Shown here one piece after another: positions 1 to 27,664 of a DNA stretch of 64,000 nucleotides. This DNA is from an uncultured Candidatus Saccharibacteria bacterium (GTDB lineage: Bacteria; Patescibacteriota; Minisyncoccia; Phycocordibacterales; Phycocordibacteraceae): the NCBI GenBank assembly GCA_964607655.1, contig CAZSKX010000001.1, forward strand, positions 6,314-70,313, in the 5' to 3' direction. The translations under genes and the position numbers were made by a program. Position 1 is the stretch's first letter, and every line of letters begins with the position of its first letter. The notes under the pieces were generated by a model. The model did not search any database and was not told the DNA's origin. It was given only the letters and a program-made list of their open reading frames with translations.

Positions 1-46
1 CGGGCAGTCATTTACGGCAGCGTCTGTTGGCTGGACAGGGAACTCT

Positions 47-1516
47 GTGGCGATGTCCGGCTCTGGCCAATACCAGGTGGTGGGCCGAACTTCCAGCGGC
101 CACATTTCGTGGTCAGTCGACTATGGTAAGACTTGGTCGGCAAGTGTGAGCTATGGTGGTGGCGGTTCGGTAAACGGGATGGCGATGTCTTCGGATGGGC
201 GCATCGTTGCGGCAGCCCCAGGCTCTAGCACCACTGGGGTATTCATCGGTGCGGCAAATACCTACTACGCGCCGTCTGTCGTGGGCGCCGGATACTTCGG
301 TATCGGCAATACAGCGCCGGATTATCAGCTTCATGTGGGGAACAGTTCCGTTAGTGGCATAGTCGCAAAGTTTCAGAACTCAACAGGGTTTTGTACGATT
401 AGCCCCACCACGACATCGCTCAGCTGTACGTCAGACGAGCGCCTTAAAAGTGATATACAGGCTCTTGCTCCTGCGCTTTCCCAGGTACGCCTGTTGAATC
501 CTGTAACGTATCAGTGGAACACCGAGAGCGCGTCTACTACCGCACACTCAGGGTTTATTGCACAACAGGTTCAGACCCTTATGCCGGATCTCGTCTCTAC
601 AGATGACGCAGGCTACCTGACCCTCAATTACGCAGGATTGACGACGTACCTCACGAGGGCCATCCAAGAACTCGATGCGCGAGAGCTTACATTCGCAAGC
701 ACCACGACCATGCGACTTGATTCGCTCGAGACGCGACTCGCGATGCTTGAGAGTGGTGCGGTCGCGAGTGGGTCGAGCACAGGTAGTCTAAGCGGCTTCT
801 CCACCTCGAGTCTCGTGGCGGCGCTTGGCAGCCTCGGCGTAGAGATCCAGAACGGCATCGCACAGCTCAAGACCCTGATCGCGCATCGGTTCGTCGCGAG
901 CGTAGCGAGCGACGGGACGAGCTCTGCCGCGACGGTGACGATCGACGCGGGTAGCGAGGGAGTGAAGGTGACCAACTCGCTCGTTGCTCCGTCGACGAAG
1001 ATCTTCGTCACCTTCAACTCGCCCGTGGTAGGGAACTGGTGGGTCGCCGAGAAGCAGGCTGGGTCGTTTAAGATTATGCTCTCGTCGGCGCAGACGAGCG
1101 ATGTCTCCTTCGACTACTTCCTCGTCCAGACTGAGGGTCAGCTCACGACGCCAGAGACGGCGACGAGCTCGCCAGCCTATAGCATCGAGCAGATCGGTGG
1201 TGGCCCGGTACAGATCCCGACCGTTGAGCCCGTGAGTACTCCTCCTACGACCGACGCGGGTGGCGATGCGCCTGCGACCTCGACCCCGCCGACGTCCGCC
1301 GATACCGGTAGCGCGACCTCGACACCGATCACCGTGACGGATGTTCCGCCAGCCGACTCTTCGATGACAACGCCAGACACTACGACCGCCACCGACCCTG
1401 CGCCAGTAGAGGAGGCGCCCGCTCCTGATCCGACACCAGAACCAGTACCGGCAAACGATCTTGCGCCAGCACCCGACACGACCACTACTGATACGAATTC
1501 CACACCCGCACAGTGA
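47..1516 (+). CDS. Secreted or surface protein with an internal peptidase S74 (tail-fibre/endosialidase) intramolecular chaperone-like domain and a Pro/Thr-rich C-terminus. The frame is open back to the window start, so the 5' end may be truncated.
   Basis: The segment SDERLKSDIQALAPALSQVRLLNPVTYQWN...GFIAQQVQTLMPDLV...GYLTLNYAGLTTYL matches the S74 chaperone-domain consensus. The 489-aa ORF has a P/T/D-rich tail. Confidence 0.6.
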   Translation: MAMSGSGQYQVVGRTSSGHISWSVDYGKTWSASVSYGGGGSVNGMAMSSDGRIVAAAPGSSTTGVFIGAANTYYAPSVVGAGYFGIGNTAPDYQLHVGNSSVSGIVAKFQNSTGFCTISPTTTSLSCTSDERLKSDIQALAPALSQVRLLNPVTYQWNTESASTTAHSGFIAQQVQTLMPDLVSTDDAGYLTLNYAGLTTYLTRAIQELDARELTFASTTTMRLDSLETRLAMLESGAVASGSSTGSLSGFSTSSLVAALGSLGVEIQNGIAQLKTLIAHRFVASVASDGTSSAATVTIDAGSEGVKVTNSLVAPSTKIFVTFNSPVVGNWWVAEKQAGSFKIMLSSAQTSDVSFDYFLVQTEGQLTTPETATSSPAYSIEQIGGGPVQIPTVEPVSTPPTTDAGGDAPATSTPPTSADTGSATSTPITVTDVPPADSSMTTPDTTTATDPAPVEEAPAPDPTPEPVPANDLAPAPDTTTTDTNSTPAQ

Positions 1517-1556
1517 TATGATGAGGACATATATTATTACTTAGTACCTTCACAAC

Positions 1557-2573
1557 ATGGCTATTCGCGTTGCAATTAACGGATTTGGGAGAATCGGGCG
1601 CGCCTTCGCGCGTCGAAGTGCGGGGCGAGGGGTCGAGATCGTCGCGATCAATGACCTCGGCTCGATCGACAACCTCGCGTACCTCCTTAAGTACGACACG
1701 GTTTATAAGCGTGCGCCCTTTAATGTCGAGGCGAAGGGGGGCGCACTCTATATCGACGACCACGAGGTGAAGTTTCTTCAGGAGAAGGACCCGTCGAAGC
1801 TGCCTTGGGGTGCGCTTAACATCGACGTGGTGATCGAGTCGACAGGCCTCTTTACCGACTACGCGAAGGCGAAGGTACACCTCGACGCGGGGGCGAAGCG
1901 CGTCGTGATCACCGCGCCGAGTAAAGATGATGACCCGATTGGGGCGACGGTACTTATGGGGATCAACGAAGGACAGCTCGCTACCTGTCAGATTTCTTCA
2001 AACGGGTCTTGCACGACAAACGCGGCGAGTCCAGTCATTGCGATCCTCGACGAGGCACTCGGGATCGAGAAGGCGATCCTCTCGACGACCCACGCTTACA
2101 CCGCGAGTCAGGGAATCGTCGACGGTCCCGCGAAGAAAGATATGAAAGAGGGTAGAGCCGCGGCGCAGAACATCGTCCCGACCTCGACAGGCGCTGCCGT
2201 CTCGGTGACGAAGGCCTATGCACCACTCACCGGTAAGTTCGATGGGATCTCGCTGCGTGTGCCGGTGCCGGCTGGCTCGATCGCGGACGTTACCTTTATA
2301 AGTAAACGAGACACAACTCCCGAAGAGGTGAATGACATCTTGCGTAAGGCGGCGAAGGACCCGCGTTGGGAGGGGGTCTTCACGATCACCGACGAAGAGC
2401 TCGTCAGTAGCGACATCGTGGGCGAGCCGCACGCCTCGATCGCCGACCTCGGGATGACGCGCGTCGTAGGGGGCAACCTCGTGAAGGTCCTCGCCTGGTA
2501 TGACAACGAGATGGGCTACACCGAGGCGCTGGTGCGCCACGTGCTGAAGGCGGGAACGCTCACCGGCTCATAA
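1557..2573 (+). CDS. gap: Glyceraldehyde-3-phosphate dehydrogenase
   Basis: N-terminal INGFGRIGR NAD-binding motif and the catalytic SCTTN motif. 338 aa. Confidence 0.9.
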   Translation: MAIRVAINGFGRIGRAFARRSAGRGVEIVAINDLGSIDNLAYLLKYDTVYKRAPFNVEAKGGALYIDDHEVKFLQEKDPSKLPWGALNIDVVIESTGLFTDYAKAKVHLDAGAKRVVITAPSKDDDPIGATVLMGINEGQLATCQISSNGSCTTNAASPVIAILDEALGIEKAILSTTHAYTASQGIVDGPAKKDMKEGRAAAQNIVPTSTGAAVSVTKAYAPLTGKFDGISLRVPVPAGSIADVTFISKRDTTPEEVNDILRKAAKDPRWEGVFTITDEELVSSDIVGEPHASIADLGMTRVVGGNLVKVLAWYDNEMGYTEALVRHVLKAGTLTGS

Positions 2574-2574
2574 T

Positions 2575-2859
2575 ATGCAGTCAAACCATCAATTATATAG
2601 GCTGCTCAGCATACTTGCTGGCGTTACCTTTGTTCTTCGGGCGCTTTTCTTGGTGGTTTTTTCTAATCCAGGGTTCTACGTTGAGAAAGTGCCTAAATCT
2701 GAATTAGTGTGGTGGGGAGGTTTGCTGGCGGTGCAAGGAATCTGCTTTATTTTGGCGCTTCTATTTAGAAGCAAATCACCATCTGATTATCGAAAAGCTT
2801 CGATTGTGATGGCGGTTGCGTTATTGGCGGGAGTTTTACCATTCGTTTACTCGGCTTGA
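2575..2859 (+). CDS. Hypothetical small membrane protein (3 predicted TM helices)
   Basis: 94-aa hydrophobic ORF whose start overlaps the gap stop (TAATATG). AT-richer codon usage than its neighbours. Confidence 0.4.
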   Translation: MQSNHQLYRLLSILAGVTFVLRALFLVVFSNPGFYVEKVPKSELVWWGGLLAVQGICFILALLFRSKSPSDYRKASIVMAVALLAGVLPFVYSA

Positions 2860-2863
2860 TTGT

Positions 2864-3298
2864 ATGAAAATATATTTTGCATCAGACCACGCGGGTTTTG
2901 AGCTGAAGAAGCTGCTTATCGAGCGCGTGCGAGCATTGGGTCACGAGGTTGAAGATGTGGGCGCAACTGAATATAACGCCGAAGACGATTATCCAGACTT
3001 TATCGCTCCCTGTGCGCAGAAGGTTGCGGCAGAGGATGGGTCCCTTGGGATTGTCCTCGGTAAGTCAGGCCAAGGTGAGGCGATGGTCGCCAACCGGGTA
3101 AAGGGTATCCGCGCGGCGGTCTATTATGGCGGGAATACTGAGCTAGTGAGACTTACCCGCGAGCACAATAACGCGAACGTCCTCTCCCTCGGAGCCGGAT
3201 TTCTGACTCCAGAGGAGGCGGGGGAGGTGGTAGACCGATTCCTTAGTGCCTCTTTTTCACATGACGACCGGCACGTACGCCGTCTGGCGAAGTTTTAG
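2864..3298 (+). CDS. rpiB: Ribose-5-phosphate isomerase B (RpiB/LacAB family)
   Basis: MKIYFASDHAGFELKK N-terminus, typical length ~145 aa. The start was chosen at the internal ATG of the listed ORF. Confidence 0.8.
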   Translation: MKIYFASDHAGFELKKLLIERVRALGHEVEDVGATEYNAEDDYPDFIAPCAQKVAAEDGSLGIVLGKSGQGEAMVANRVKGIRAAVYYGGNTELVRLTREHNNANVLSLGAGFLTPEEAGEVVDRFLSASFSHDDRHVRRLAKF

Positions 3299-3313
3299 GG
3301 CTATACTATATAT

Positions 3314-4030
3314 ATGAAGTTTATTGTGCCGGCGATCTTGCCGAGCTCATATCATGACCTGAAGGAGAAGCTCGTCTTTCTCGATCATATTCCTCCGCGG
3401 CGGGTCCAGATCGATGTGGTTGACGGGGAGTTCGCTTGGCCGCCATCGTGGCCCTTCCTCGCGGGCACAGAACTACACACGCTCGTCGCCCAAGGAGAAA
3501 GTCTTCCACATCTCGACCGGATCGAGTACGAAGCAGACTTGATGTGTAAAGACCCTGAGGCGATCGCGACTGACCTGGTTAATTTCGGCGTCACGCGGCT
3601 CACGCTCCACGTCGAAGGTATGGGTGATATTAAGACAATGCTCGACCGCATGCGCCGCACCTACTCAGCTGAGGCGAACTTCTCGCTCTATCTCTTCTCG
3701 ATGGGGCTCGCCGTTAACGTCGACACCGATGCGTCAGTGCTCGACCCTTTTGTTGATGATCTTGAATACGTGCAGATTATGGGTATCGACAAGATCGGGG
3801 TCCAAGGCCAACCGTTTAATCCTAAAGTGATCGAGAAGGTGCGCGACTTCCGCAGGAAACACCCGAAGATTATTATCCAAATCGATGGTGGCGTCTCGCT
3901 CGAGAATGCACGCGAGCTCGTGGCCGCTGGCGCATCGCGTTTTGTCGTCGGTTCAGCACTTCTGAACTCGATCGATGTCGTGAACACTTTTAAGTCACTT
4001 GAAGCACTGCAAAATCCGTACGGTGAATAA
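3314..4030 (+). CDS. Ribulose-phosphate 3-epimerase-like TIM-barrel protein (divergent; canonical metal-binding His residues substituted)
   Basis: Collinear with Rpe across IVPAILPSSY, IDVVDGEF (DGHF in Rpe), LTLHVEG, IQIDGGVSLENARELVAAGASRFVVGSA. Confidence 0.6.
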   Translation: MKFIVPAILPSSYHDLKEKLVFLDHIPPRRVQIDVVDGEFAWPPSWPFLAGTELHTLVAQGESLPHLDRIEYEADLMCKDPEAIATDLVNFGVTRLTLHVEGMGDIKTMLDRMRRTYSAEANFSLYLFSMGLAVNVDTDASVLDPFVDDLEYVQIMGIDKIGVQGQPFNPKVIEKVRDFRRKHPKIIIQIDGGVSLENARELVAAGASRFVVGSALLNSIDVVNTFKSLEALQNPYGE

Positions 4031-4051
4031 TCAGTACGTTATACTAGAGAG

Positions 4052-4909
4052 ATGAGATTGTTCGATTCGGGGACGAAAGATCTTGAAGAACGGGCGCGTG
4101 CGATCCGCGAGACGATCATCAAGATGCTCGTCGCGGCGGGCAGTGGACACACTGCGGGCCCGCTCGGGCTCGCCGACATCTTCGCAGCGTTTTACTTCAA
4201 CATCCTTAAGCACGATCCGAAGCGGCCGAACTGGAGCGAGCGCGACTGGCTGATTCTCTCAAACGGTCACACCGTCCCCGTCCGCTATGCGGCGATGGCA
4301 CACGCCGGCTACTTCTCCCTTGAGGAGGCTATGACGCTGCGCAAGTTTGGGAGCCGTATCCAAGGCCACCCGGAGCGCACTCGTCTGCCGGGCCTCGAGA
4401 CGACCTCGGGTCCGCTCGGTGAGGGGCTCTCCCAAGCATCCGGTATCGCGTATGCGCACCGCATGGACAAGAAGAAGAACCGCATCTACTGCGTGATGAG
4501 CGACGGGGAACAGGAGGAGGGAAACACCTGGGAGGCGGTGATGTTCGCCGGGAAGTACAAGCTCAGTAACCTCACCGCCGTGATGGACCGTAACAATATC
4601 CAGATCGACGGGATGACTGAAGACGTGATGCCGCTCGACTCGCTCGCTGATAAGTACCGGGCCTTCAACTGGCACGTACTTGAAGTAGACGGACACAATA
4701 TTCGCCAGTTTATCGATGCAGTCGAAGAGGCAAAGGCGATCGTCGAGAAGCCGACGCTTATCATCGCGCACACGATCCCTGGGAAGGACGTCCCCGAGAT
4801 CGAGTACGACTTCCGGTGGCACGGTAAGCCACCGACCAAAGAAGAAGGGAAGCAGTTTTTGAAGGAGTTACGCAGCATGAAAGGGCGCTTGAAACACGAG
4901 TATGCTTAA
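4052..4909 (+). CDS. tkt: Transketolase, N-terminal (TPP-binding) subunit of a split enzyme
   Basis: GSGHTAGPLG and DGEQEEGNTWEA motifs. 285 aa. Overlaps the next gene by 8 nt. Confidence 0.85.
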   Translation: MRLFDSGTKDLEERARAIRETIIKMLVAAGSGHTAGPLGLADIFAAFYFNILKHDPKRPNWSERDWLILSNGHTVPVRYAAMAHAGYFSLEEAMTLRKFGSRIQGHPERTRLPGLETTSGPLGEGLSQASGIAYAHRMDKKKNRIYCVMSDGEQEEGNTWEAVMFAGKYKLSNLTAVMDRNNIQIDGMTEDVMPLDSLADKYRAFNWHVLEVDGHNIRQFIDAVEEAKAIVEKPTLIIAHTIPGKDVPEIEYDFRWHGKPPTKEEGKQFLKELRSMKGRLKHEYA

Positions 4910-5894
4910 CAGCGACGCGGTCATCTCAGATAAAGTATTTACCTCGGCGATCGAGAAGAAGCCGACGCGTGACGGCTTTGGCAAAGGGGTCGTGGTCGCC
5001 GGACAACGCGACCCGAACGTGGTCGTGCTCTGTGCTGACCTGAAGGAATCGACCCGCGCAGAAGAATTTGAAAAAGCCTTTCCCGATCGTTTCGTCGAGA
5101 TGGGCGTGGCAGAGCAGAACATGGCCACGGTAGCCGCCGGGATGGCGCTTGCCGGAAAGGTCCCTTTTATCACGAGCTACGCAGCCTTTAATCCCGGGCG
5201 TAATTACGAGCAGATCCGTACGACCATCGCCTTAAACGACGTGCCGGTGAAAGTCTGTGGTATGCACGCAGGAGTTTCCGTCGGCCCAGACGGCGCGACA
5301 CACCAGATGCTCGAAGATATTGCGATGATGCGCGTACTGCCCAACATGACGGTCGTTGTACCTGCCGATGCTGAAGAGGCACGTAAGGCGACGATCGTCG
5401 CTGCAACAACGGGCAAGCCTATGTACCTTCGCTTCGGACGATCGGCAACGCCGGTGTTCACGACCGTAACCTCGCCCTTCACGATCGGCAAGGCGCTCAC
5501 ACTCTGGAACTGTGACGCGCCACGACTCGCGATCCTCTCGACAGGGTCTACGAGCTACGCAGCACTCGTCGCAGCAGAGAAGCTCTCGCGCGGCGGGATC
5601 GGCGTCATGGTCCTTCACTTCGCGACGGTAAAGCCGCTCGATGAGACGGCGGTCCTCACCGCAGCGAAGCGTGCCGGGCAGGTACTTACAGTAGAAGAGC
5701 ACCAGATAGCGGGAGGGTTCGGCTCTGCGGTGGCAGAGTGCCTCGCCGAGCACGCGCCGACGCGTGTCGTGCGAATCGGTATTCGCGATCAGTTTGGACA
5801 ATCAGGAGATCCTGAGGAGCTACTTACGCACTACGGTATCGACGCTGACGCGATCGAGCGCACTGCGCGGCACATGCTCCACGCTCGCTCTTAG
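4902..5894 (+). CDS. tkt: Transketolase, C-terminal (pyrimidine-binding) subunit
   Basis: FVEMGVAEQNMATVAAGMA motif. 330 aa. Confidence 0.85.
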   Translation: MLNSDAVISDKVFTSAIEKKPTRDGFGKGVVVAGQRDPNVVVLCADLKESTRAEEFEKAFPDRFVEMGVAEQNMATVAAGMALAGKVPFITSYAAFNPGRNYEQIRTTIALNDVPVKVCGMHAGVSVGPDGATHQMLEDIAMMRVLPNMTVVVPADAEEARKATIVAATTGKPMYLRFGRSATPVFTTVTSPFTIGKALTLWNCDAPRLAILSTGSTSYAALVAAEKLSRGGIGVMVLHFATVKPLDETAVLTAAKRAGQVLTVEEHQIAGGFGSAVAECLAEHAPTRVVRIGIRDQFGQSGDPEELLTHYGIDADAIERTARHMLHARS

Positions 5895-6874
5895 AGAGGC
5901 GTGACTACGTAGTCAGCAGGTGCTTCAGCAAGAAGCTTCTCAAGCGCTTCTCGAGAGAGAAGGCCTTTTTGTGCGCCGATTTCTTGTACAACGGCCATCG
6001 AGTTCACTGGGCCCCAGAGCAGAGCCTCGTCAAGCGGTTTCCCGAGCGCGAGGGCGGCCACGATAGTCGAGGTGCACGCGTCACCAGCACCGGTGCGCTC
6101 AAAAGGAGGCTTTGGATCAGGGTACATCGGGACCTTAAGTACGCGCGCGCCGTCTGAGGCGTAGGCACCGCGTGGACCGTCGGTGATCACGACCACCTTT
6201 GGTCCAAGCGTGTGCATTTGTTCGAGCAGAGACTTGAGGTCGGTATCGCCAAGGCCGAGAATACGCTCGGCTTCTTGCTTGTTGCAGGCGAGGAGCTCGG
6301 TCACTTGGTAGAGGGGAGCAAGGGTGTCTTTACCCATTTCGATCTGGAAGGTGCCGGGTTGGAAGGCGAGTTTTGTCTCGGGGTGTGCGGCTATCCACGC
6401 GGCTAGATCAAGATGGAATTGTTTCGAATTAACGCTTGCCGATGAGAGGTAGATCCAGCGCGGGGGAGTGAACCCTTCAGGGATTGCATAGGGATACGCC
6501 TCGTGACGGATGAGGATCGTGCGCTCCTCTTCGTACCAGAGCACGTAGTGGTGATTCGTCGGGAGGTCGCTGTTTACGGCGACGTTGGAGACGTCAACCT
6601 TTTCTTCTTTGAAGTGCTCGAGCGTTAGCCTTCCGTAGTCGTCATTGCCGACGTTTGAGATAAAGCCCGAAGAGAGTCCGAGGCGTGCCGCCGCGACAGC
6701 AGCGTTCGCTGCGTTACCAACACCAGCAAGAAGTACGGAGAATTCAAAAGGAATCTTATCGCCCCACTTCATCGAGATGGTGCAGTTGTCGTTATTGATA
6801 TCGCAGGTGACCTTCGCATCTTTCAGTCGGATAAACTCGTCGGTGGCGGTGTCGCCGATTGCAATGAAATCCAT
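5891..6874 (-). CDS. PfkB/ribokinase-family carbohydrate kinase (possible 6-phosphofructokinase or ribokinase)
   Basis: C-terminal TGAGDA anion-hole motif. The GVGNAANAA segment looks like the family's substrate-binding region. Start placed at the internal MDFIAIGD ATG. Confidence 0.7.
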   Translation of the reverse strand: MDFIAIGDTATDEFIRLKDAKVTCDINNDNCTISMKWGDKIPFEFSVLLAGVGNAANAAVAAARLGLSSGFISNVGNDDYGRLTLEHFKEEKVDVSNVAVNSDLPTNHHYVLWYEEERTILIRHEAYPYAIPEGFTPPRWIYLSSASVNSKQFHLDLAAWIAAHPETKLAFQPGTFQIEMGKDTLAPLYQVTELLACNKQEAERILGLGDTDLKSLLEQMHTLGPKVVVITDGPRGAYASDGARVLKVPMYPDPKPPFERTGAGDACTSTIVAALALGKPLDEALLWGPVNSMAVVQEIGAQKGLLSREALEKLLAEAPADYVVTPL

Positions 6875-6987
6875 ATGGAAGGAGTCTACCACACGCACTC
6901 GCCCAATTTTTTGCTCCTTCGGGCCCTGGCGAGGACTGGGGCAGCCAGTCGCAGAAAAATTGGGCGAGTGCGTGTTACGATACACGC

Positions 6988-7986: not shown

Positions 7987-8027
7987 AGTTGCAAAAAAGC
8001 CATTAATACGGCATACTCGCTTCTATT

Positions 8028-8660
8028 ATGATTACGTTACCGGTAGAGAAGCGAGAGGCTGGCGATGCAGCAGAACTGCGTCGAACAGGTAAGGTTCCGG
8101 GTGTTGTTTACGGCGCGCACCACGAGTCGACGCCCATCGCGATAGATGCGGTCGCATTTAGTAAGGCGCTTAAGGCGGCTGGCGAAGCGACAGTGGTGTC
8201 CTTGACTGGTCTCGGGGAGGCTGTGCCAACCCTTATCCACCAGGTTGATCTCGACCCGCTCACGAGCCAGCCACAGCACGTCGACTTCTACGCCGTCACG
8301 AAGGGTGAGAAGGTGCAGGTCCACGTACCGCTCGAGTTTATCGGCGAGTCAGCAGCAGTGAAGGCTGGCGCCAACCTCGTGAAGGTGCTTCACGAGATCG
8401 AAGTCGAGGCCGACCCGATGCTCCTTCCGCGCGATCTTAAGGTCGACCTCGCGATGCTTGTGAATTTGAATGACCAGATCCACGTGCGCGATATTACGAT
8501 CCCTGCCAACGTCACGCTCGTGACGGGTGAAGAGGAAGTCATCGCGATCGCCCAGGAAGTCGCTCAAGAGCGCGAGGAAGTCGCACCAGCAGACATCTCA
8601 GCGGTAGAAATCGAGAAGAAAGGCAAAGAGGAGGAAGCGGCTGCCGCAGAAGCAGCATAA
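8028..8660 (+). CDS. rplY: 50S ribosomal protein L25 / general stress protein Ctc
   Basis: N-terminal REAGDAAELRRTGKVPGVVYG. 210-aa Ctc-type length. Confidence 0.8.
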   Translation: MITLPVEKREAGDAAELRRTGKVPGVVYGAHHESTPIAIDAVAFSKALKAAGEATVVSLTGLGEAVPTLIHQVDLDPLTSQPQHVDFYAVTKGEKVQVHVPLEFIGESAAVKAGANLVKVLHEIEVEADPMLLPRDLKVDLAMLVNLNDQIHVRDITIPANVTLVTGEEEVIAIAQEVAQEREEVAPADISAVEIEKKGKEEEAAAAEAA

Positions 8661-8678
8661 CGCAAGGTTTCGTGTGCG

Positions 8679-8710
8679 TAAGACGGCCCCAACGGGGCCG
8701 TCTTCATTTG
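8679..8710 (+). terminator. Rho-independent terminator after rplY
   Basis: Hairpin AAGACGGCCCC-AAC-GGGGCCGTCTT followed by CATTTGTT. Confidence 0.6.
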
Positions 8711-8725
8711 TTATAATAAAGAACA

Positions 8726-10090
8726 ATGTATCGCCGAACTTTTTTTATTGTGCTCATTGCCGGAGTTCTGGGCATGGGGCTCGTGGCGAGCTGGCAGGTG
8801 CCACTTGTCGCCGCGCAGGAGCTCACGCCTGCTGAGCGGGCAGAACTCCAGCGTCAGTATGATCAGCTCCAGAAGGAGATCGAGCAGCAGCAGGAGATCA
8901 TCAGGCAGACCCAGGCGCAGAAAAATACGCTCCAAGGAGATGTGACGAGTCTGAACGCCAAGATTAAGTCTGCCCAGGCGCAGATTGACGCAAAGAATAT
9001 CCAGATCAGACAGCTCGGCACACAGATCGCACAGAAAAACGTCGTGATCGGACAGCTCTCACAACGGATCGAGAAAGGAAAAGAATCACTCGGGGCGATC
9101 TTGCGCCAGACGCAGATGCTCGACGATTATTCGGTGGTGATGATCGCCTTGAGTAGTGATAGCGTATCGAGCTTCTTTGTAGATCTCGACTCCTTCACTT
9201 CGATTAAGAAACAGATGGCGAATCTTTTTTCTGACATTCGTCACGCTAAGGCTCAGACCGAGACCGAGAAGGCCGACCTAGCCAAGAAGCAGAATCAAAC
9301 TACCGATGCGAGGTACGAGATCGAGACTGAGAAGCAGAAGGTCGCGCAGAATAAAACCGAGAAGCAGAAGCTGCTCACTATCACGGCAAATAAGGAAGTT
9401 GAATATCAGAAAGTGCTTGCAGAGAGACAGGCGAAGGCCGCGGCGATTCGTGCAGCACTCTTCCCGCTGCGCGATGCCGCGGCGATCCCGTTCGGCACAG
9501 CGCTTAAGTATGCCCAAGAGGCCAAGCGTGCGACCGGGGTGAATCCTGCACTCGTGCTCGCTATCCTCACGCAAGAGTCGAACCTCGGCGCGAACGTCGG
9601 GCAGTGTTACCTCCAGAACAACACAACAGGCGCGGGTATCGGAAAAAATACGGGCACAGTGTTCGCCAAGGTAATGAGTCCGACGCGTGACGTGCCACCG
9701 TTTCTTGAGATTGCCTCGAAGCTCGGCTTCGATCCACACCGACAAGTCGTGTCTTGTCCGATCGCTGCTGCCGGTGGATGGGGCGGTGCGATGGGTCCCG
9801 CACAGTTTATCCCGTCGACCTGGAAGATCTATGCGGCTCGGGTCGCGAGTGCAAACGGCGTCTCAGTAGCGAGCCCATGGGATGCTAAGCACGCGGTCAC
9901 TGCCATGGGCTACCTCCTCGCAGACAACGGTGCCTCAGCGGGCGGCTATACAGCCGAGTTTAACGCCGCCGCGCGCTACTACGCCGGGTGGAACGGACCT
10001 CAAATGACGGTCGGTCGCCAATACGCGACCCAGGTGATGGCTCGCGTGGCCGCGCTTCAGAAGAATATTGACTTCTTGGCCGATAATTAG
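8726..10090 (+). CDS. Secreted coiled-coil protein with a C-terminal lytic-transglycosylase (SLT)-like domain
   Basis: Signal/TM N-terminus, ~200 aa of Q/E/K-rich heptad coiled coil, then LTQESNLG ... GAMGPAQF ... AMGYL, which resemble SLT family motifs. Confidence 0.5.
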   Translation: MYRRTFFIVLIAGVLGMGLVASWQVPLVAAQELTPAERAELQRQYDQLQKEIEQQQEIIRQTQAQKNTLQGDVTSLNAKIKSAQAQIDAKNIQIRQLGTQIAQKNVVIGQLSQRIEKGKESLGAILRQTQMLDDYSVVMIALSSDSVSSFFVDLDSFTSIKKQMANLFSDIRHAKAQTETEKADLAKKQNQTTDARYEIETEKQKVAQNKTEKQKLLTITANKEVEYQKVLAERQAKAAAIRAALFPLRDAAAIPFGTALKYAQEAKRATGVNPALVLAILTQESNLGANVGQCYLQNNTTGAGIGKNTGTVFAKVMSPTRDVPPFLEIASKLGFDPHRQVVSCPIAAAGGWGGAMGPAQFIPSTWKIYAARVASANGVSVASPWDAKHAVTAMGYLLADNGASAGGYTAEFNAAARYYAGWNGPQMTVGRQYATQVMARVAALQKNIDFLADN

Positions 10091-10195
10091 GCCAGTTGGT
10101 AGGGCTGAGGTTATCCACTCTTCAGAGGGGGCGTCTCTAGGCTAAGCCTCTATACTGTAGGCATAGTCATTAATCTTTAAGTCATTTATCTATTT

Positions 10196-11065
10196 ATGAA
10201 CGCCCGCCGCTTCCTCTCTACCTCTGCAGTAGCCACCGCTGCCGTATTGATCTCTGCAGGGATCCAGGTACTTGCCTACACTCCACCAAGCACAACCCCG
10301 ACAGGAGGGGACGCTGATGCGCCGCTGAACGTGGGATCAGCTACACAAACCAAAACTGGCGCCCTAAGAGTGAATGGTGCGCTTACCGCAGCGGGCGGTT
10401 TTCTTGCTACCACAATTTCAACAACCGGCGATATTGCGTCGCAGGGAAAAATCACAGCGGACATAGGTGCGGGAGAAGGTTTCTGTCTTGGCTCTTCGTG
10501 TATCACCGCGTGGCCGGCAGCAACTGACACTTCAACCTTCCTCGACACCAGCGCGACGGCTCAAACAAAGGCCGGCGCATTGACGGTCCAGGGCAATCTC
10601 ACTTCCAACAACCTCGTGTCGAACACGAGCGGTAAAGTGATCGTTGGTGGAGGATCAGCTTCTGGGGCATCCGATGTGCCACTCACGGTAAACGGAAGGG
10701 TGAGGATTACGGGAGGCGGACCCGCTCAGTATGCCTACCTGACCGCAGACGGCACCGGAGGCGACGCGTCGTGGCGTCCGTCGAAGTGTGGCTCAGCTTC
10801 TGCTACCGCAGCGTGTGTCAAGTTTCCCAATGGGTCGATGATGACCTGGGGTAATACTGGTACGGGTACTGGGGACCGGACACAGTCTTTCCCGAGCGGT
10901 GTTTCGTTCTCGAACACTAACTACTCTGTCACCATGACGCCTAATAACTCTACTTCCCAAAACTGCGTACCGTCCATAACATCAAAATCATCAACTTCCT
11001 TCGGGTTCAGGACTGACGCAGCCTGCGACACGATCACCTTTAATTGGCAGGCAACAGGCTTCTAG
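10196..11065 (+). CDS. Secreted Gly/Thr/Ser-rich beta-repeat protein (tail-fibre-like)
   Basis: Signal peptide MNARRFLSTSAVATAAVLISAG. Repeated TQTKTGAL(R/T)V(N/Q)G motifs. Confidence 0.45.
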   Translation: MNARRFLSTSAVATAAVLISAGIQVLAYTPPSTTPTGGDADAPLNVGSATQTKTGALRVNGALTAAGGFLATTISTTGDIASQGKITADIGAGEGFCLGSSCITAWPAATDTSTFLDTSATAQTKAGALTVQGNLTSNNLVSNTSGKVIVGGGSASGASDVPLTVNGRVRITGGGPAQYAYLTADGTGGDASWRPSKCGSASATAACVKFPNGSMMTWGNTGTGTGDRTQSFPSGVSFSNTNYSVTMTPNNSTSQNCVPSITSKSSTSFGFRTDAACDTITFNWQATGF

Positions 11066-11071
11066 TCTTCC

Positions 11072-14000
11072 ATGGACGCGACCTCGCCGCATTCTCAGAA
11101 GCACGATACGGTGAAGCGCCAGCTACAAGGGGCGCTCTGGCTTCTGCTTGTTACGGTCGTGGCGACTACGGCGGGGGTGTGGATGAGTCTGAAGTATAGC
11201 GAGCTCGCACACTACGGCCGTAGTCAGCTGGCCGCAGTGGCGGCAGCGCCGGCGGGAACAGTTCCCCTTAGCGGCTGGGCCTGGTCGGGAGGAGACGGCA
11301 CCAAGGGCCCCTACATGGGCTGGATCAGTTTCAGTAGCGATAACGACCCCGCGGGCGCTCCCGTCTACGGCGTCTATGAGAATGTGAGCGACGGCCTGCT
11401 CTCAGGCTACGCCTGGTCAAGTAATCTCGGCTGGGTGAGCTTCAACGCAACAGATGTCGCCACCTGCCCCTCGGGTGGTTCTGCGCCCCGGGTCGATCTC
11501 TCCACTGGTAAAGTGAGCGGATGGGCGCGTGCGTGCTCGGCTTTTTCGGGATCGTATTGTAGCGGAACGCTCGATTCAAGGAGTGGTGGTTGGGACGGAT
11601 GTGTCAGTCTCGCCACCCAGAGTAATGAAACGGTCGCCTATGGAATCACGCAAGACCCGGCGACCTGTAATTGGAGCGGCTACGCCTGGGGGTCCACCGC
11701 GATCGGCTGGGTGAATGTTAACGGAGGTACTACATATGGCGTGAAGTGTGCCAAGCCTGATCTTAGGGCGCAGTATGTTGATCAGATCACAGCTCAAGCA
11801 GGTACGTCGCAGGACTTTACGACCACCGTTTCAAATATTGGAAGCCTTCCGGTCAATGCACCATTTTATAATCTGTTACAGCGCGCAGATACCATTGATG
11901 CAAGTGGTAACGGTATAAATCCACAAACGGCGAACGTGTCGAGTTTTGCCGGCCCTTTCCCAATTTCGGTTAATGGTACGGCAAAAGTTTCGGTACCGTA
12001 CGCTTTTAGCGTGCCTCAAGATGTGGGCACGGTCAGGTATGTCCGTATTTGTGTCGACCAGAATCAACCGGGAACAACTGGAGACATTGCTGAATTAAAC
12101 GAACAGAACAACTGCACGGCATGGAAGGGTATCCAAGTGGGTGGACCTAAGCCAAACCTCCGTGCCTGGGAAGTGACCCCTACGACTGCGAGCGTGGGTG
12201 TTGAGCAGACGTACTCGGCTAAGGTGTCAAACAACGGTGTGGCCGATGTGCCGAACCCATACTATGCTTTGTTCCAGCGCGTAGACGCAATTGACGCTAA
12301 CGGTAACGCCGTCGGGACGCCGCTCGACATTAACGTGCTCGGTATGCCGAGCGGGCTGAAGGTTTCGGCGACAACCACCGTCAATGTCGCCTATACTTTT
12401 CCTCAAGCCGATGCGGGAACTACTCGGTATCTCCGCGTGTGTGCGGATGCGAATTCAAACGCAGTTATTGGCGCACAGAACGACGTCCTCGAATCCTCAG
12501 AGACAGATAACTGTGGTGCGTGGACCGCGGTAGTGGTGGAAGGATCTAATCTCCAGGCAGACGCCATTGGTTACAATGGCGGTGCGCCGACTCCAACGGT
12601 CCCGACGGTATTTTTCGGATCAGTCAAAAATATCGGTACGGCAGGGATCAGTGGTGGTGTCCCGAGTATTCTGAGGATTAAGAGCGACGCTCTCGGATCA
12701 AGAGTCTATGCTCGACTCGATGCGGGAAGTATCCCGTCTATTGCTGCGGGAGCTACAAACGTATCGCTACCTAATAGCAATCTCTCCACCTTTAGCTTCG
12801 CGACCTCATCTACGGGGACGTACTATGCAGATGTTTGTGTGAACATGAACACCGGCGGGACCGTGCCGGTAAACACGGCTGAGCCGTATCCTCCTGCTGA
12901 CAACTGCGGCCAGAATCTGACCGTCGTCGTAAGAGCGCCAAACCTTACCGTCATTCCAGGTACGAGCTATACGGTCGTTATCGGGACCCCTCTTACGGTA
13001 TCTGCGTCTGTGAGAAATATAGGAGATCTAACAACAGGGCAGGGATTCACGGTCAACTTCCAGCGGGGTGATGGAGCTCTCGATGCGAATGGTAATCCTA
13101 CTGGCACCATCACGCCAAGTATCGGTACGGGCAGCGCGACGACCCTAGCGGCAGGAGCCACACAGACAGTGACGATGTCTACGACCTACAGCGGCTTTAC
13201 TACGGACGATGTTGGACAGCCACGTTGGATACGCGCCTGTGCTGATAAGTCGGCGACGATGGCAGATGGCCCCGTCAAAGAATTCGATGTGAAAGGTGCT
13301 GCCGAAGGCGACAATTGTGGTCCGTGGACCGCGGTGACGGTAGGAGGGCTGCCTGACGTGCAAGCGAACGCCGTAACCGCCTCGAAGACCAATCCAACGG
13401 TGAATGAAGCAGTGACGTTTAACACTACCGTAAGCAACCTCCCAACGGCGTCTGGGCCTGCAAACGACTTCCCGACCGTTATTCAAATTGCCAGCCCGAC
13501 TGATCCAGCCACTAATATAAGACGCATTGCCGCCAGTCCGGCCACCACGACGTCGCTTGCTGTGGGTGCTACGACCGGTACACTTTCCGCGAGCTTCGCC
13601 ACCAGCACTCCAGGGCAGTACCGGGTTCGTGCTTGTGCAAATATGTATCCTTCAGGGGCATTAGTGATCCCGGAGAGTAATACAGGCAACAACTGCAGTA
13701 CGTCGTGGGTGTTGATCACGGTGGATTCTGGGGTCGCTGCTCCTACAGTCATCAATCCGACCCATACCGCCATTACGACAACGGGTGCAACACTCGGTGC
13801 AACAGTCTCTTCAAATGGCGGCGCAGCACTCACCGCCAGAGGAACCTGCTGGAGCACGGCTATCAACCCGTCGCTAACTAACGGTGCCAATTGTCTTGCC
13901 GAGGGCGGTACGACAGTCTCAACATTCAGTCATGCACGCACGGGGCTCACTTCGGGAGCAACGATTCACTACCGTGGATACGCCACAAACGCAGTGGGTA

Positions 14001-15457
14001 CGGGTTACACAGCGGACACCGTTTTCTCGACTTCACTGCTTGGTATCACGGTCAGCCCTAAAGCATACTTCTCGCCAGTGTGGTCGCGCACCACTACGGT
14101 CACCTATACACTCACAAACGGCGATTCTGCCAACTCTGTCTGCCGCGCGCTTGATTATGCGAAGAAACCCCTGGGTACGGGTAGTTTCTTTGATTGTACG
14201 GGCGCACGCGCGATCGGATCCTCCTTTATACCGAATGCTATTGGCGAGTATGGATACTATATCCAGGCCTCATCAACCACTACGATGGCGCAACCGGTTG
14301 AGGACAGTCTCACGATCTTTACAACCTCGCCTTTCTTGACTGCAAACGGGCTCTCCGGTCTGCCGAGCACAGCGTCTTTGGGCAGTTCGATTGCTCTGAA
14401 TGGTAGTGTCAATAATGCGAGTACCACGATCCCGAATAACGTGGCCGATGCGTCAAATGTGCCAAGTGTATATCGAGTGAAAACATCGTCGGGCGGGACG
14501 CCTGTCGCATATATCGACGGTGGATCAAAGAATCTTCCAAAGGGTGCGACAGGAGCCTCTGCTGTGGCGCTCAGCGCGGGCTCATATACTCCGACTACCG
14601 CGGGCACCTACTACTTCGATGTCTGTGTCAACATGGGCACGGACACGGTGATACCAAAGGTTTCAGAGTCTAACGCGAGCGACAACTGTGGTCCGGAAAG
14701 TTCTGTCACGGTGGCAGGCACTTGTACTGTGGACGCAACCTGCACATCCGGAGCAAATAACTGTGGCACCACGGCAACGGGCCAATATAACGCAAGCTGC
14801 ATCTGTTCAGCCACCACACCGCCGGATGAAGCAACGTGCGACGGTGGAAGCCCGTCTATAACCTGTACGCGCAACCCTAACACTGCGTCCATAAGTGTAG
14901 GCACACCGGTTACCTTCGACGCAGGTCCGCAAGACGGAGCACAAGGGCCGTATATTTTCAAAAATGGAAGCACTCCTCTGTGTTCTACAACTGGTTCTGC
15001 CTCTTCCTGCCAATGGATCGCCACTGCGGGCAGCTATGACGTAAAGGCTGAGACCTCCTCGGCGAGCCCGACGCCAAACTTGGGCCCCATGCCTTGTGGC
15101 ACAATCTTTACTGTGGGCACCGCAGAAACAGCCCCAGTAATAACCTCCTTCACGGCCGATCCTCTTACGGGTGTTCGGTCAGGCTACACGACTACCCTTA
15201 ACTGGACCTCTAGTGACCCAGCGGCTGTATGTAAGATTGCTCGCTTGGCCGATGCTGCGAACAACGACTCATGGAAGACTGGCCTGCCAGCAAATGACAC
15301 CTCGACTGACGCGGTGACCACGACCGACACGGTTACCAGTGAGACCGTGTACACCCTCACTTGTACGAAGGGTAGTCTTACGAGCAGTGCGGAAGTGGTT
15401 GTTGCCGACGTCTTCCCGTGCTCCGTCGAGATAGGACTCGAATGCCCTGCGGAGTAG
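11072..15457 (+). CDS. Giant membrane-anchored surface protein (1461 aa) with ~7 CARDB-like repeats, an FN3/Ig-like region and a Cys-rich C-terminus
   Basis: N-terminal TM helix. Modules recur ending in the NNC(G/T)AW / NCGPW motif preceded by (T/R)RY(L/V)R(I/V)C(A/V)D. This is a single uninterrupted ORF. Confidence 0.65.
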   Translation: MDATSPHSQKHDTVKRQLQGALWLLLVTVVATTAGVWMSLKYSELAHYGRSQLAAVAAAPAGTVPLSGWAWSGGDGTKGPYMGWISFSSDNDPAGAPVYGVYENVSDGLLSGYAWSSNLGWVSFNATDVATCPSGGSAPRVDLSTGKVSGWARACSAFSGSYCSGTLDSRSGGWDGCVSLATQSNETVAYGITQDPATCNWSGYAWGSTAIGWVNVNGGTTYGVKCAKPDLRAQYVDQITAQAGTSQDFTTTVSNIGSLPVNAPFYNLLQRADTIDASGNGINPQTANVSSFAGPFPISVNGTAKVSVPYAFSVPQDVGTVRYVRICVDQNQPGTTGDIAELNEQNNCTAWKGIQVGGPKPNLRAWEVTPTTASVGVEQTYSAKVSNNGVADVPNPYYALFQRVDAIDANGNAVGTPLDINVLGMPSGLKVSATTTVNVAYTFPQADAGTTRYLRVCADANSNAVIGAQNDVLESSETDNCGAWTAVVVEGSNLQADAIGYNGGAPTPTVPTVFFGSVKNIGTAGISGGVPSILRIKSDALGSRVYARLDAGSIPSIAAGATNVSLPNSNLSTFSFATSSTGTYYADVCVNMNTGGTVPVNTAEPYPPADNCGQNLTVVVRAPNLTVIPGTSYTVVIGTPLTVSASVRNIGDLTTGQGFTVNFQRGDGALDANGNPTGTITPSIGTGSATTLAAGATQTVTMSTTYSGFTTDDVGQPRWIRACADKSATMADGPVKEFDVKGAAEGDNCGPWTAVTVGGLPDVQANAVTASKTNPTVNEAVTFNTTVSNLPTASGPANDFPTVIQIASPTDPATNIRRIAASPATTTSLAVGATTGTLSASFATSTPGQYRVRACANMYPSGALVIPESNTGNNCSTSWVLITVDSGVAAPTVINPTHTAITTTGATLGATVSSNGGAALTARGTCWSTAINPSLTNGANCLAEGGTTVSTFSHARTGLTSGATIHYRGYATNAVGTGYTADTVFSTSLLGITVSPKAYFSPVWSRTTTVTYTLTNGDSANSVCRALDYAKKPLGTGSFFDCTGARAIGSSFIPNAIGEYGYYIQASSTTTMAQPVEDSLTIFTTSPFLTANGLSGLPSTASLGSSIALNGSVNNASTTIPNNVADASNVPSVYRVKTSSGGTPVAYIDGGSKNLPKGATGASAVALSAGSYTPTTAGTYYFDVCVNMGTDTVIPKVSESNASDNCGPESSVTVAGTCTVDATCTSGANNCGTTATGQYNASCICSATTPPDEATCDGGSPSITCTRNPNTASISVGTPVTFDAGPQDGAQGPYIFKNGSTPLCSTTGSASSCQWIATAGSYDVKAETSSASPTPNLGPMPCGTIFTVGTAETAPVITSFTADPLTGVRSGYTTTLNWTSSDPAAVCKIARLADAANNDSWKTGLPANDTSTDAVTTTDTVTSETVYTLTCTKGSLTSSAEVVVADVFPCSVEIGLECPAE

Positions 15458-27571: not shown

Positions 27572-27633
27572 ATGACTCTATATACATACCACGGCTCGAT
27601 TTCATTGTCAAGTCCAGGGGGCTTGACAGAAAG

Positions 27634-27662: not shown

Positions 27663-27664
27663 AT

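What the first reader, a model, noticed from the sequence alone, without database searches (positions are those of the whole stretch)
47..15457. Phage tail-fibre-type modules in cellular surface proteins, and a CARDB giant protein cluster
The first ORF contains a confident peptidase-S74 intramolecular chaperone-like domain (SDERLKSDI...GYLTLNYAGL), the module that phage tail spikes and fibres use for trimer folding and autoproteolysis. Here it is internal, not C-terminal, and is followed by a coiled coil, a beta domain and a Pro/Thr-rich tail. The protein 10196–11065 has tail-fibre-like TQTKTGALxVxG repeats and is followed by a 1461-aa CARDB-repeat giant protein. No integrase, terminase or capsid genes are present, so these look like domesticated adhesin or tailocin-like components or prophage remnants. 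They probably contribute to host or episymbiont attachment.
Basis: motifs are seen in sequence; the S74 function is established knowledge.
Basis: partly seen in the sequence, partly recalled or inferred. Interest (0 to 1): 0.5.

Follow-up and report, generated by a model that had tools for sequence, protein, structure and literature searches.

The report
Giant self-cleaving surface fibre gene end
The phage-like domain is real, but it sits at the tail end of a giant chromosomal cell-surface fibre gene that tiny Paceibacteria-type (CPR) bacteria keep at one fixed genome position, so it is a bacterial attachment fibre built from phage tail-fibre parts and not a prophage.

Summary
ORF1 (nt 2-1516, cut by the window start) has a Peptidase_S74 domain (E 1.7e-15) with an intact SDERLK Ser-Lys motif, and 277 residues follow it. 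The 289-aa protein ends in a tail-fibre tip domain (Pfam Gp53-like_C; Foldseek hits to R-pyocin and AP22 fibres). The 1461-aa protein carries about six CARDB-like units.

The window holds housekeeping genes only and shows no phage genes. ORF1 is the 3' end of a giant gene. Complete orthologues are 2,800-3,200 aa, and other family members reach 5,473 aa. They read HTH_17-like domain, membrane helix, long fibre, S74 or Peptidase_G2, then a conserved post-S74 module I call module B (coiled coil plus a tailspike-type beta-sandwich), then Ig-like domains or a Pro/Thr tail.

Module B was found in 85 Patescibacteria species genomes and in no IMG/VR viral contig. In 66 of the 80 loci examined the gene lies just upstream of gapA-rpiB-rpe-tkt. 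Against a close relative, similarity starts exactly at the S74/module B junction, so head plus S74 is an exchangeable cassette. In 9 of 80 genomes a split intein breaks the gene at that junction.

The tip protein and CARDB giant form a separate accessory island.

Most likely this is a membrane-anchored trimeric adhesin fibre whose S74 folds it and self-cleaves.

The parts
2..1516 (+). 3' end (504 codons plus stop) of a giant surface-fibre gene; the frame is open to the window edge
   Evidence: Translation. Orthologues at the same locus are at least 1334 aa (L003), and complete ones are 2,791-3,235 aa.
2..271 (+). Variable head: Asp-box/BNR-like beta-propeller blade(s), with SVDYGKTW at aa 38-45
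   Evidence: Motif search. There is 30% identity to the BNR_6-containing P0055 over aa 15-224. The close relative L003 carries a different propeller here.
296..331 (+). Stalk capping-loop motif FGIGNTAPDYQL just before S74
   Evidence: It is the same type as the GNVGIGTTSPxxxL repeats in homologues and the V-G-G/N-x-x-x-P-x-x-x-L loop consensus of Bdellovibrio MAT fibres (PMC10769870).
431..682 (+). Peptidase_S74 intramolecular chaperone/autoprotease domain (aa 144-227); predicted cleavage after Ser144 (nt 431-433), with catalytic Lys149 (nt 446-448)
   Evidence: Pfam E 1.7e-15, PHROG hits, PDB 6f45 alignment. The Ser+Lys pair is kept in 93 of 102 S74 domains that precede module B.
692..1171 (+). 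Module B, the constant module (aa 231-390): coiled-coil helices plus a K1-lyase_C/tailspike-type C-terminal beta-sandwich (aa ~305-380, nt 914-1141)
   Evidence: AlphaFold2 model. Foldseek BFVD gives 19 hits at E<=1e-3 with rmsd 1.4-1.8 A; PDB hits are 7eea, 9k4a, 6cl6 and 4urr. 305 cluster representatives match. DNA identity to L003 starts at nt 692.
1172..1513 (+). Pro/Thr-rich low-complexity tail (22% T, 21% P); it takes the place of the 2-3 Ig-like domains found in most homologues
8726..10090 (+). Secreted coiled-coil plus SLT_2 lytic transglycosylase; a conserved neighbour of rplY and the left border of the accessory island
10196..11065 (+). Small secreted fibre-tip protein: N-terminal hydrophobic leader, invariant N-terminal segment, two QTKxGAL units, and a C-terminal tail-fibre tip lectin-like domain (aa ~180-289, nt 10733-11062)
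   Evidence: Pfam Gp53-like_C E 6e-8. AlphaFold2 model. Foldseek hits: 6ct8 E 1.2e-4, 6cl6 E 4.3e-4, 4mtm E 1.4e-3 with rmsd 2.4 A. Alignment A1.
11072..15457 (+). 1461-aa membrane-anchored protein with GWAWS/GWISF repeats, about 6 CARDB-like units and a Cys-rich C-terminal part; it starts 6 nt after the tip-protein gene
   Evidence: The pairing is conserved in L005 and L006.

Best explanation
ORF1 is the C-terminal ~500 aa of a giant chromosomal cell-surface fibre that is conserved across Paceibacteria-type Patescibacteria at the locus gatB - small HTH_17 gene - giant gene - gapA.

Full-length orthologues have a cytoplasmic HTH_17-like domain and one membrane helix at the N-terminus. About 2,000-3,000 aa of GNVGIGTTSP-type fibre stalk follow, then a variable head, which in the window is an Asp-box propeller. 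After the head comes a phage-type intramolecular chaperone/autoprotease (S74 here, Peptidase_G2 in about a fifth of relatives). Last comes a constant C-terminal module, module B, made of a coiled coil and a tailspike-type beta-sandwich, followed by Ig-like domains or a Pro/Thr tail.

Proposed mechanism (inferred):
- The protein is anchored by its N-terminus, and three chains are registered at the C-terminal end.
- S74 templates trimer folding of the upstream fibre, as it does in phage fibres.
- S74 then cuts after Ser144 using the Ser144-Lys149 dyad.
- The conserved S74 + module B + tail piece is thereby detached as an assembly cap, and the variable head is left as the exposed distal tip that binds the host or partner cell.

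Head plus cognate S74 behaves as an exchangeable cassette recombined onto the constant module.

Separately, the 289-aa protein is a short secreted fibre with a conserved N-terminal docking segment and a variable phage-type receptor-binding tip. I infer that it is displayed on the membrane-anchored CARDB giant encoded 6 nt downstream. These two genes form an accessory surface-protein island.
For: Shown:
- S74 domain and SDERLK motif.
- Ser+Lys kept in 93/102 S74 domains preceding module B.
- Of 129 module B proteins with at least 110 aa of upstream sequence, the nearest upstream domain is S74 in 101, G2-like in 23, a C-intein in 3 and none in 2.
- Module B occurs in 305 cluster representatives up to 5,473 aa long, always 100-290 aa from the C-terminus.
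- 85 genomes carry it, all Patescibacteria; none of the IMG/VR viral contigs does.
- gapA-rpiB-rpe-tkt lies within 6 kb downstream on the same strand in 66/80 loci.
- gatB plus an HTH_17 gene lies upstream in 4/4 loci that have upstream flank.
- An HTH_17-like N-terminal motif followed by a hydrophobic stretch read by eye as a membrane helix appears in 7/7 complete ORFs of at least 2,500 aa; Pfam scans of three of them gave HTH_17 for two.
- DNA identity to the close relative L003 is 82.6% from nt 692 (the end of S74) through gapA, with nothing detectable upstream of that point.
- The closest relatives of the head+S74 segment lack module B.
- The module B beta-sandwich matches phage tailspike C-terminal domains.
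- The window is otherwise housekeeping.
- Tip protein. Its synteny with the giant.

Precedent: Bdellovibrio MAT fibres are cellular S74 fibres with an SDxxxK motif and demonstrated self-cleavage (PMC10769870).
Against: - Cleavage and trimerisation are inferred from motif conservation only; no multimer model or experiment exists.
- The window's own N-terminus is not visible and the source contig could not be fetched. The HTH-TM anchor is therefore extrapolated from orthologues.
- The HTH_17 scores are below Pfam's cut-off (20-27 bits against 27).
- A 350-500 aa cap carrying Ig-like domains is large for something disposable. Strong conservation of module B could instead reflect a conserved binding partner.
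- The domain counts use profiles I built in-session from Pfam-validated seeds, not curated models.
- The docking of the tip protein on the CARDB giant rests only on adjacency and conserved pairing.
Confidence: 0.6

Rival explanations
1. S74 does not release anything. Either it is uncleaved or the halves stay together. Module B with its Ig-like or Pro/Thr tail would then be the permanent distal tip of the fibre, binding a conserved ligand, and S74 would act only as an internal trimerisation node.
For: - Module B contains a tailspike-type C-terminal beta-sandwich, which in phages is a retained terminal domain.
- Most homologues add 2-3 Bact_surface_Ig-like domains after it, which look like functional surface domains.
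- Mean column identity of the beta-sandwich is 62% across the class, which suggests a conserved partner.
Against: - The catalytic Ser and Lys are kept in 93/102 cases, and they are not needed for a purely structural role.
- S74 is interchangeable with Peptidase_G2, another self-cleaving chaperone, at the same position.
- A receptor-binding tip would be expected to vary, yet module B is the most conserved part while the region upstream of it is swapped between close relatives.
- In all studied S74 proteins the fragments separate (PMC10769870, PMC3742440).
Confidence: 0.25
2. MYRF-like tether. The C-terminal module with its Pro/Thr tail holds the protein in the cell wall, and S74 cleavage releases the N-terminal trimer into the medium or onto the host.
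For: - An internal S74 followed by a long C-terminal part is the MYRF layout (PMC3742440, PMC8326128).
- Pro/Thr-rich segments are typical wall-spanning regions (general knowledge).
Against: - No membrane helix, LPXTG or other conserved anchor motif follows S74 in the window protein or its homologues. The C-termini end variably.
- In complete orthologues the membrane anchor is at the N-terminus, so cleavage would free the C-terminal piece and not the fibre.
Confidence: 0.07
3. Prophage remnant or tailocin cargo. ORF1 and the 289-aa protein are leftover phage receptor-binding genes with no cellular role.
For: - S74, Gp53-like_C and K1-lyase_C-like folds are all typical of phage receptor-binding proteins.
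- Bro-N, NYN and IS200-type genes occur beside homologues in some loci.
Against: - No sheath, tube, baseplate, capsid, terminase or integrase gene appears in 64 kb.
- The gene keeps the same position next to gapA in 66/80 species genomes, with gatB upstream.
- Module B is absent from IMG/VR.
- Open reading frames of 2,800-3,600 aa are maintained intact.
Confidence: 0.03

Closest known systems
Bdellovibrio bacteriovorus MAT (mosaic adhesive trimer) fibres, S74 subgroup, e.g. Bd3182 (Caulton et al. 2024, PMC10769870)
   Same: Both are chromosomal, non-phage fibre proteins of a bacterium that lives on other bacteria. Both have a long stalk with V-G-x-x-x-x-P-x-x-x-L type capping loops and an S74 domain with an SDxxxK motif. 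Both show mosaic exchange of tips.
   Different: - MAT fibres are about 1,000 aa, start with a signal peptide plus a conserved ~130-aa beta-rich domain, and end with S74.
- Here the protein is several thousand aa, and its orthologues start with an HTH_17-like domain plus a membrane helix.
- Here S74 is internal, followed by a conserved 160-aa module plus Ig-like domains or a Pro/Thr tail.
- This is one gene at a fixed locus rather than 21 dispersed paralogues.
Phage tail fibre/tailspike C-terminal intramolecular chaperone domains (K1F endosialidase, T5 pb1, S16 gp37; Pfam PF13884)
   Same: The domain is homologous, the Ser-Lys motif is intact, and it lies directly after a fibre/stalk segment.
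   Different: In phages the domain is the extreme C-terminus (the PHROG profile ends) and the gene sits in a virion module. Here 277 more residues follow and the context is cellular.
MYRF (myelin regulatory factor) ICA domain (PMC3742440, PMC8326128)
   Same: S74 is internal in a cellular membrane protein that also carries a DNA-binding-type domain, and self-cleavage separates two functional halves.
   Different: In MYRF the order is DNA-binding domain, ICA, membrane helix. Here it is HTH, membrane helix, giant ectodomain, S74, module B. The HTH would therefore stay membrane-tethered after cleavage, and no membrane helix follows S74.
R-type pyocin and phage AP22 gp53 tail-fibre tips (PDB 6ct8, 6cl6, 4mtm; Pfam PF21882). 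This comparison concerns the 289-aa protein.
   Same: The C-terminal ~100-aa beta-sandwich tip has the same fold (Foldseek prob 1.00, rmsd 2.4-3.5 A) and gives a Pfam match above cut-off.
   Different: The protein is 289 aa with a secretion leader. It has no baseplate-attachment domain and no phage or tailocin neighbours, and it is paired with a CARDB giant.
Fractured genes with split inteins (Dassa et al. 2009, PMC2677866). This comparison concerns related loci only.
   Same: One gene ends in an N-intein, a 2.4-3.4 kb insert with free-standing genes follows, and the next gene starts with the C-intein.
   Different: The host gene here is an exported giant surface fibre, not a DNA-metabolism gene. 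The intervening genes include Bro-N.

Membership tests
Peptidase_S74 / intramolecular chaperone auto-processing domain | Profile match above the curated cut-off | tested here: met
   PF13884 E 1.7e-15, 57.5 bits against a cut-off of 22, profile positions 1-57 of 58.
Peptidase_S74 / intramolecular chaperone auto-processing domain | Catalytic Ser-Lys dyad in an S-D-x-x-x-K motif | tested here: met
   SDERLK at aa 144-149, aligned to SDRRIK of phage S16 gp37.
Peptidase_S74 / intramolecular chaperone auto-processing domain | Located at the extreme C-terminus of the fibre or spike | tested here: not met
   277 residues follow the domain. The phage profiles end with it.
Peptidase_S74 / intramolecular chaperone auto-processing domain | Trimer-dependent self-cleavage | not testable with these tools
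   Only monomer AlphaFold2 was available. This needs expression of the wild type against S144A.
Bdellovibrio MAT fibre family | Signal peptide followed by a conserved ~130-aa beta-rich N-terminal domain | tested here: not met
   The window's N-terminus is missing. Seven complete orthologues start with an HTH_17-like motif followed by a hydrophobic stretch read by eye as a membrane helix; Pfam scans of three of them gave sub-threshold HTH_17 for two.
Bdellovibrio MAT fibre family | Capping-loop stalk repeats plus a terminal S74 or alternative tip | tested here: inconclusive
   The capping-loop-like motif FGIGNTAPDYQL and S74 are both present, but S74 is not terminal.
MYRF-type internal ICA protein | Membrane helix downstream of the S74/ICA domain | tested here: not met
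   By eye there is no hydrophobic helix in aa 228-504 or in the homologue C-termini. No transmembrane predictor was available.
Prophage / tailocin module | Neighbouring virion or contractile-tail genes (sheath, tube, baseplate, capsid, terminase, integrase) | tested here: not met
   Pfam and PHROG scans of the window ORFs found only housekeeping genes. The flanks of orthologous loci are gatB and gapA.
Gp53-like_C tail-fibre tip (289-aa protein) | Profile match above cut-off and matching fold | tested here: met
   PF21882 33.5 bits against 24.9. Foldseek 4mtm rmsd 2.4 A, TM (target) 0.55; 6ct8 E 1.2e-4.
CARDB-domain surface protein (1461-aa protein) | CARDB profile match above cut-off, repeated | tested here: met
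   PF07705 E 3.6e-11, 43.6 bits against 22.7, two stretches. A self-derived profile finds about 6 units.

The most novel reading that the evidence does not exclude
The gapA-adjacent giant gene defines an undescribed class of Patescibacteria host-contact organelle. It would be an HTH-and-membrane-anchored fibre hundreds of nanometres long, whose variable head plus S74 cassettes are swapped onto a constant C-terminal module. The swapping would occur by recombination, and in about 10% of species at the protein level by split-intein trans-splicing of an exported protein. The cytoplasmic HTH domain might couple contact or cleavage at the far end to DNA binding or gene regulation, as in a ToxR- or MYRF-like transmembrane signalling fibre.
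Probability: 0.15. Interest if true: 0.85.

Novelty: new variant of a known kind. Interest (0 to 1): 0.6.

Why it matters
Paceibacteria/Parcubacteria are abundant, uncultured, ultra-small bacteria thought to live attached to other cells. Their attachment machinery and host ranges are unknown.

A single, class-wide, syntenic giant fibre gene with an exchangeable distal head gives a concrete candidate for the host-recognition organelle. It is also a marker locus (between gatB and gapA) that can be compared across genomes to infer host switching.

The design shows that phage self-cleaving chaperone domains (S74 or Peptidase_G2) have been built into the interior of cellular proteins together with a lineage-specific constant module. 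That extends the Bdellovibrio MAT precedent to a very different, Gram-positive-like lineage.

The split intein at the cassette junction of an exported protein, seen in relatives, would be an unusual substrate for protein trans-splicing.

Tried and rejected
- Finding the source contig to read upstream of the window. An exact 50-mer scan of genome contigs and metagenome contigs found nothing. Exact-protein look-ups of GAPDH and of the 100%-identical P0073 returned no DNA. The cluster look-up shows only that the source is an NCBI contig of 464,554 bp. Orthologous loci were used instead.
- Testing whether the module B beta-sandwich and the 289-aa tip domain are the same family. hhalign gave probability 0.9%, so no sequence-level relation, although both hit overlapping sets of phage tip structures.
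- phmmer of the 289-aa protein against PDB sequences found nothing at E<=1.
- PHROG and NCBIfam gave nothing for the 289-aa protein or the CARDB giant.
- Literature searches for S74 with Patescibacteria, and for split intein with CPR, returned nothing relevant. The nearest mention is the 'large >1500 aa putative adhesins' of OD1 (PMC4508563).
- Sortase anchoring was considered. A sortase gene is in the window, but neither ORF1 nor the CARDB giant has a C-terminal LPXTG signal.
- Pfam lists PF16403 for many homologues, but the window protein itself lacks the Ig-like domains.


Full report
**1. The observation**

Reading the + strand from nt 2 gives an uninterrupted 504-codon frame that stops at nt 1514-1516. 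Pfam finds Peptidase_S74 at aa 144-198 (E 1.7e-15, 57.5 bits against a cut-off of 22). More than 25 PHROG tail-fibre, tailspike and baseplate families match aa ~100-227, nearly always against the last residues of the phage profile, for example 1345-1550 of 1567 and 894-987 of 1000. The only solved relative by sequence is the S16 long-tail-fibre gp37 (6f45), where SDRRIK aligns with the window's SDERLK. The domain is therefore real, carries the Ser-Lys motif, and is internal, with 277 residues after it.

An AlphaFold2 monomer of aa 91-400, built on 57 homologues, gives two long helices (aa ~210-250 and 268-298) and a very confident beta-sandwich (aa ~305-380, pLDDT 96-98). The last 114 residues are 22% Thr and 21% Pro.

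The 289-aa protein matches Gp53-like_C (E 6e-8, above cut-off). The 1461-aa protein matches CARDB (E 3.6e-11) and has about six internal CARDB-like units.

**2. Context in the window**

Every other sizeable ORF is housekeeping. Between and after the three genes lie GAPDH, RpiB, Rpe, a split transketolase, PfkB, class I aldolase, L25, L31, RF and S2. Further along come EF-Ts, PheRS, GyrB, ThrRS, DnaE, RNase HII, NusB, RNase III, SMC, RNase R, S16, TrmD, RpoB/C, DnaG and RpoD. Ten unannotated ORFs gave no phage family of known function; the only hit was a weak match (E 1.6e-4) of a 76-aa ORF to a PHROG of unknown function. The region 47-15457 is not one cluster, because 8.7 kb of core genes separate ORF1 from the tip-protein/CARDB pair. 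Homologues and gene content point to a Kaiserbacteria-like member of the Paceibacteria (Patescibacteria/CPR), with GC about 56%.

**3. What ORF1 belongs to**

The 72 word-indexed homologues are all from CPR metagenome bins, and they are mosaics.
- One set shares aa ~13-231 (head, stalk and S74) but has a different post-S74 region and lacks the rest.
- Another set shares aa ~195-390, which I call module B.

A full HMMER scan with module B against 1.84 billion cluster representatives finds 305 proteins (152 at E<=1e-10). Lengths reach 5,473 aa, and module B always lies 100-290 aa from the C-terminus.

I built profiles in the sandbox from Pfam-validated seeds. Among the 129 representatives with at least 110 aa upstream of module B, the nearest upstream domain is S74 in 101, Peptidase_G2-like in 23, a C-intein in 3 and none in 2. 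The S74 Ser and Lys are both kept in 93 of 102 (Pfam confirmation of examples). Two different phage self-cleaving intramolecular chaperones therefore occupy the same slot in front of the same constant module.

**4. Cellular, syntenic and class-wide**

Module B was not found in IMG/VR viral contigs. It was found in 85 GTDB species genomes, all labelled Patescibacteria lineages: Paceibacterota, Kaiserbacteria, Parcubacteria, Minisyncoccia, Nomurabacteria, Wolfebacteria and UBA2103, plus some TPA bins labelled Saccharibacteria.

In 66 of the 80 loci retrieved, gapA-rpiB-rpe-tkt follows within 6 kb on the same strand, often within 100 bp as in the window (first seen). In the four loci with usable upstream flank the order is gatB, a ~270-300 aa HTH_17 protein, then the giant gene.

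Complete orthologues are 2,791-3,235 aa. Their order is N-terminal HTH_17-like domain (20-22 bits, below the 27-bit cut-off, but the same motif appears in 7 of 7 complete ORFs), a basic stretch, one hydrophobic helix, about 2,500 aa without Pfam matches but full of GNVGIGTTSP repeats, one or two S74 domains, module B, and two Bact_surface_Ig-like domains. Every orthologous locus argues against it.

**5. Cassette structure**

L003 is a contig from a close relative. Its GAPDH falls in the same 90%-identity cluster as the window's, and the DNA is 82.6% identical. It carries a gene of at least 1,334 aa at the same place. DNA similarity to the window runs from nt 692 through gapA and is undetectable upstream of nt 692. 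Nt 692 is aa 231, the end of the S74 domain. Upstream, L003 has a different propeller repeat and a divergent S74 (DTSSARFK; Pfam E 4.6e-4).

The head plus its own S74 is therefore exchanged as a unit onto a constant module B. This fits S74 acting as the cognate folding chaperone of what lies N-terminal to it.

**6. Fold of module B**

The beta-sandwich matches C-terminal domains of phage tailspikes and fibres.
- BFVD gives 19 hits at E<=1e-3, with rmsd 1.4-1.8 A over ~73 residues. They include K1-lyase C-terminal-domain proteins and pectate-lyase tailspikes.
- PDB gives Pam1 7eea, K64-1 depolymerase 9k4a, R2 pyocin fibre 6cl6 and Sf6 4urr. Foldseek probability is about 1.0, but E is only 5e-3 to 5e-2.
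- Pfam K1-lyase_C appears below threshold in 5 of 17 members.

Both recognisable parts after the head are thus phage receptor-binding-protein parts, but the combination is specific to this lineage.

**7. Mechanism**

Shown:
- the architecture, the intact dyad and its conservation;
- the interchangeability of S74 with G2;
- the N-terminal anchor in orthologues;
- conserved ends with a variable middle;
- the recombination junction.

Inferred: the fibre is tethered by its N-terminus, and the C-terminal coiled coil and beta-sandwich register three chains. S74 nucleates folding of the upstream trimer and then cuts after Ser144. This releases S74, module B and the tail, and exposes the variable head as the distal, partner-binding tip. 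Self-cleavage of cellular S74 fibres has been demonstrated in Bdellovibrio MAT proteins (PMC10769870).

The main rival is that the pieces stay together and module B, with its Ig-like domains, is a permanent distal element binding a conserved ligand. The size of the putative cap and the conservation of module B (62% mean column identity) keep this alive at about 0.25.

A MYRF-like wall tether is unlikely. No anchor follows S74, and the membrane helix is N-terminal.

**8. The tip protein and the CARDB giant**

The 289-aa family (8 members) has an almost invariant N-terminal 55 aa, consisting of a hydrophobic leader followed by AYTAPSxxPTGGDADAPLNVGSxxQTKTG, and a variable C-terminal half. I read the leader as a signal peptide by eye; no predictor was available.

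Only the C-terminal ~110 aa of the model are confident. That part matches R2/R1 pyocin fibre feet and AP22 gp53 (E 1.2e-4 to 1.9e-3, probability 1.00). A conserved N-terminus with a variable tip is the logic of a phage fibre.

The gene is followed after 6 nt by the membrane-anchored CARDB giant. The order L25, SLT protein, tip protein, giant recurs in L005 (72% identity) and L006 (44%). In L011, L021 and L027, however, the SLT gene is followed directly by rpmE. The pair is therefore an accessory insertion. The CARDB giant has only 24 detectable homologues. That the tip protein docks on the giant is my inference from adjacency alone.

**9. Comparison and novelty**

The closest known system is the Bdellovibrio MAT fibre family. 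The differences are:
- internal rather than terminal S74;
- a conserved post-S74 module;
- an HTH + membrane-helix N-terminus;
- 3-5 times the length;
- a single fixed locus.

Large putative adhesins in Parcubacteria have been noted only generically (PMC4508563). I found no description of this architecture in the searchable library. That library is incomplete, so prior description elsewhere cannot be excluded. I rate it a new variant of a known kind, with interest 0.6.

Noticed in passing
L002:1028-6682; also L009, L016, L017, L019, L025, L035, L041, L042 (split) and L044 (contiguous): In 9 of the 80 species genomes, and also in L002, the giant fibre gene is broken between S74 and module B by a split intein. 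The upstream gene ends with an N-intein (CVVGDTRL...TANHPYL), a 2.4-3.4 kb insert follows (Bro-N and other ORFs in L002), and the next gene starts with a C-intein (VYDIEVEGTHNFVGNDIFAHN|T). L044 has the intein uninterrupted in one ORF. About 25 of the 72 first-search homologues begin with this C-intein.
   Followed up: partly
L011:1520-, L018:3206-, L021:2924-, L026:1217-, L054:2543-, L072:2678-, L078:593-: Complete orthologues of the giant gene begin with an excisionase-type HTH_17-like domain (below the Pfam cut-off), a basic segment and one membrane helix. That places a DNA-binding-type domain on the cytoplasmic side of a giant surface fibre. A separate ~270-300 aa gene with the same HTH lies just upstream, after gatB.
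   Followed up: partly
window 26831-32558: A sortase gene (27536-28366) sits between a small CARDB protein (26831-27571, minus strand) and a second giant CARDB protein (28422-32558, 1378 aa). The giant has an N-terminal membrane helix and a dockerin-like DINGDGVV motif, but I saw no C-terminal LPXTG signal.
   Followed up: partly
window 8726-10090: A secreted protein has ~220 aa of EnvC/PcsB-like coiled coil followed by an SLT_2 lytic transglycosylase domain. It lies immediately after rplY (L25) in the window, in L005 and L006, and in more than 25 of the species loci, so it looks like a conserved cell-wall remodelling gene of this class.
   Followed up: partly
window 4052-5894: Transketolase is encoded as two overlapping genes (N-terminal half 4052-4909, C-terminal half 4902-5894). 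The same split appears in the related loci.
   Followed up: no
L011:1-1260: A second ORF containing module B ends just upstream of the complete giant gene in this genome. This suggests tandem duplication of the fibre gene in some species.
   Followed up: no
L001:2807-7927 and L002:2000-8011: Between the fibre gene and gapA some relatives carry Bro-N, NYN nuclease, IS200-type transposase and toxin-antitoxin-like small genes, and in L001 a 1337-aa Laminin_G_3 protein. The intergenic slot that is only 40 nt long in the window is therefore an insertion hot spot elsewhere.
   Followed up: no
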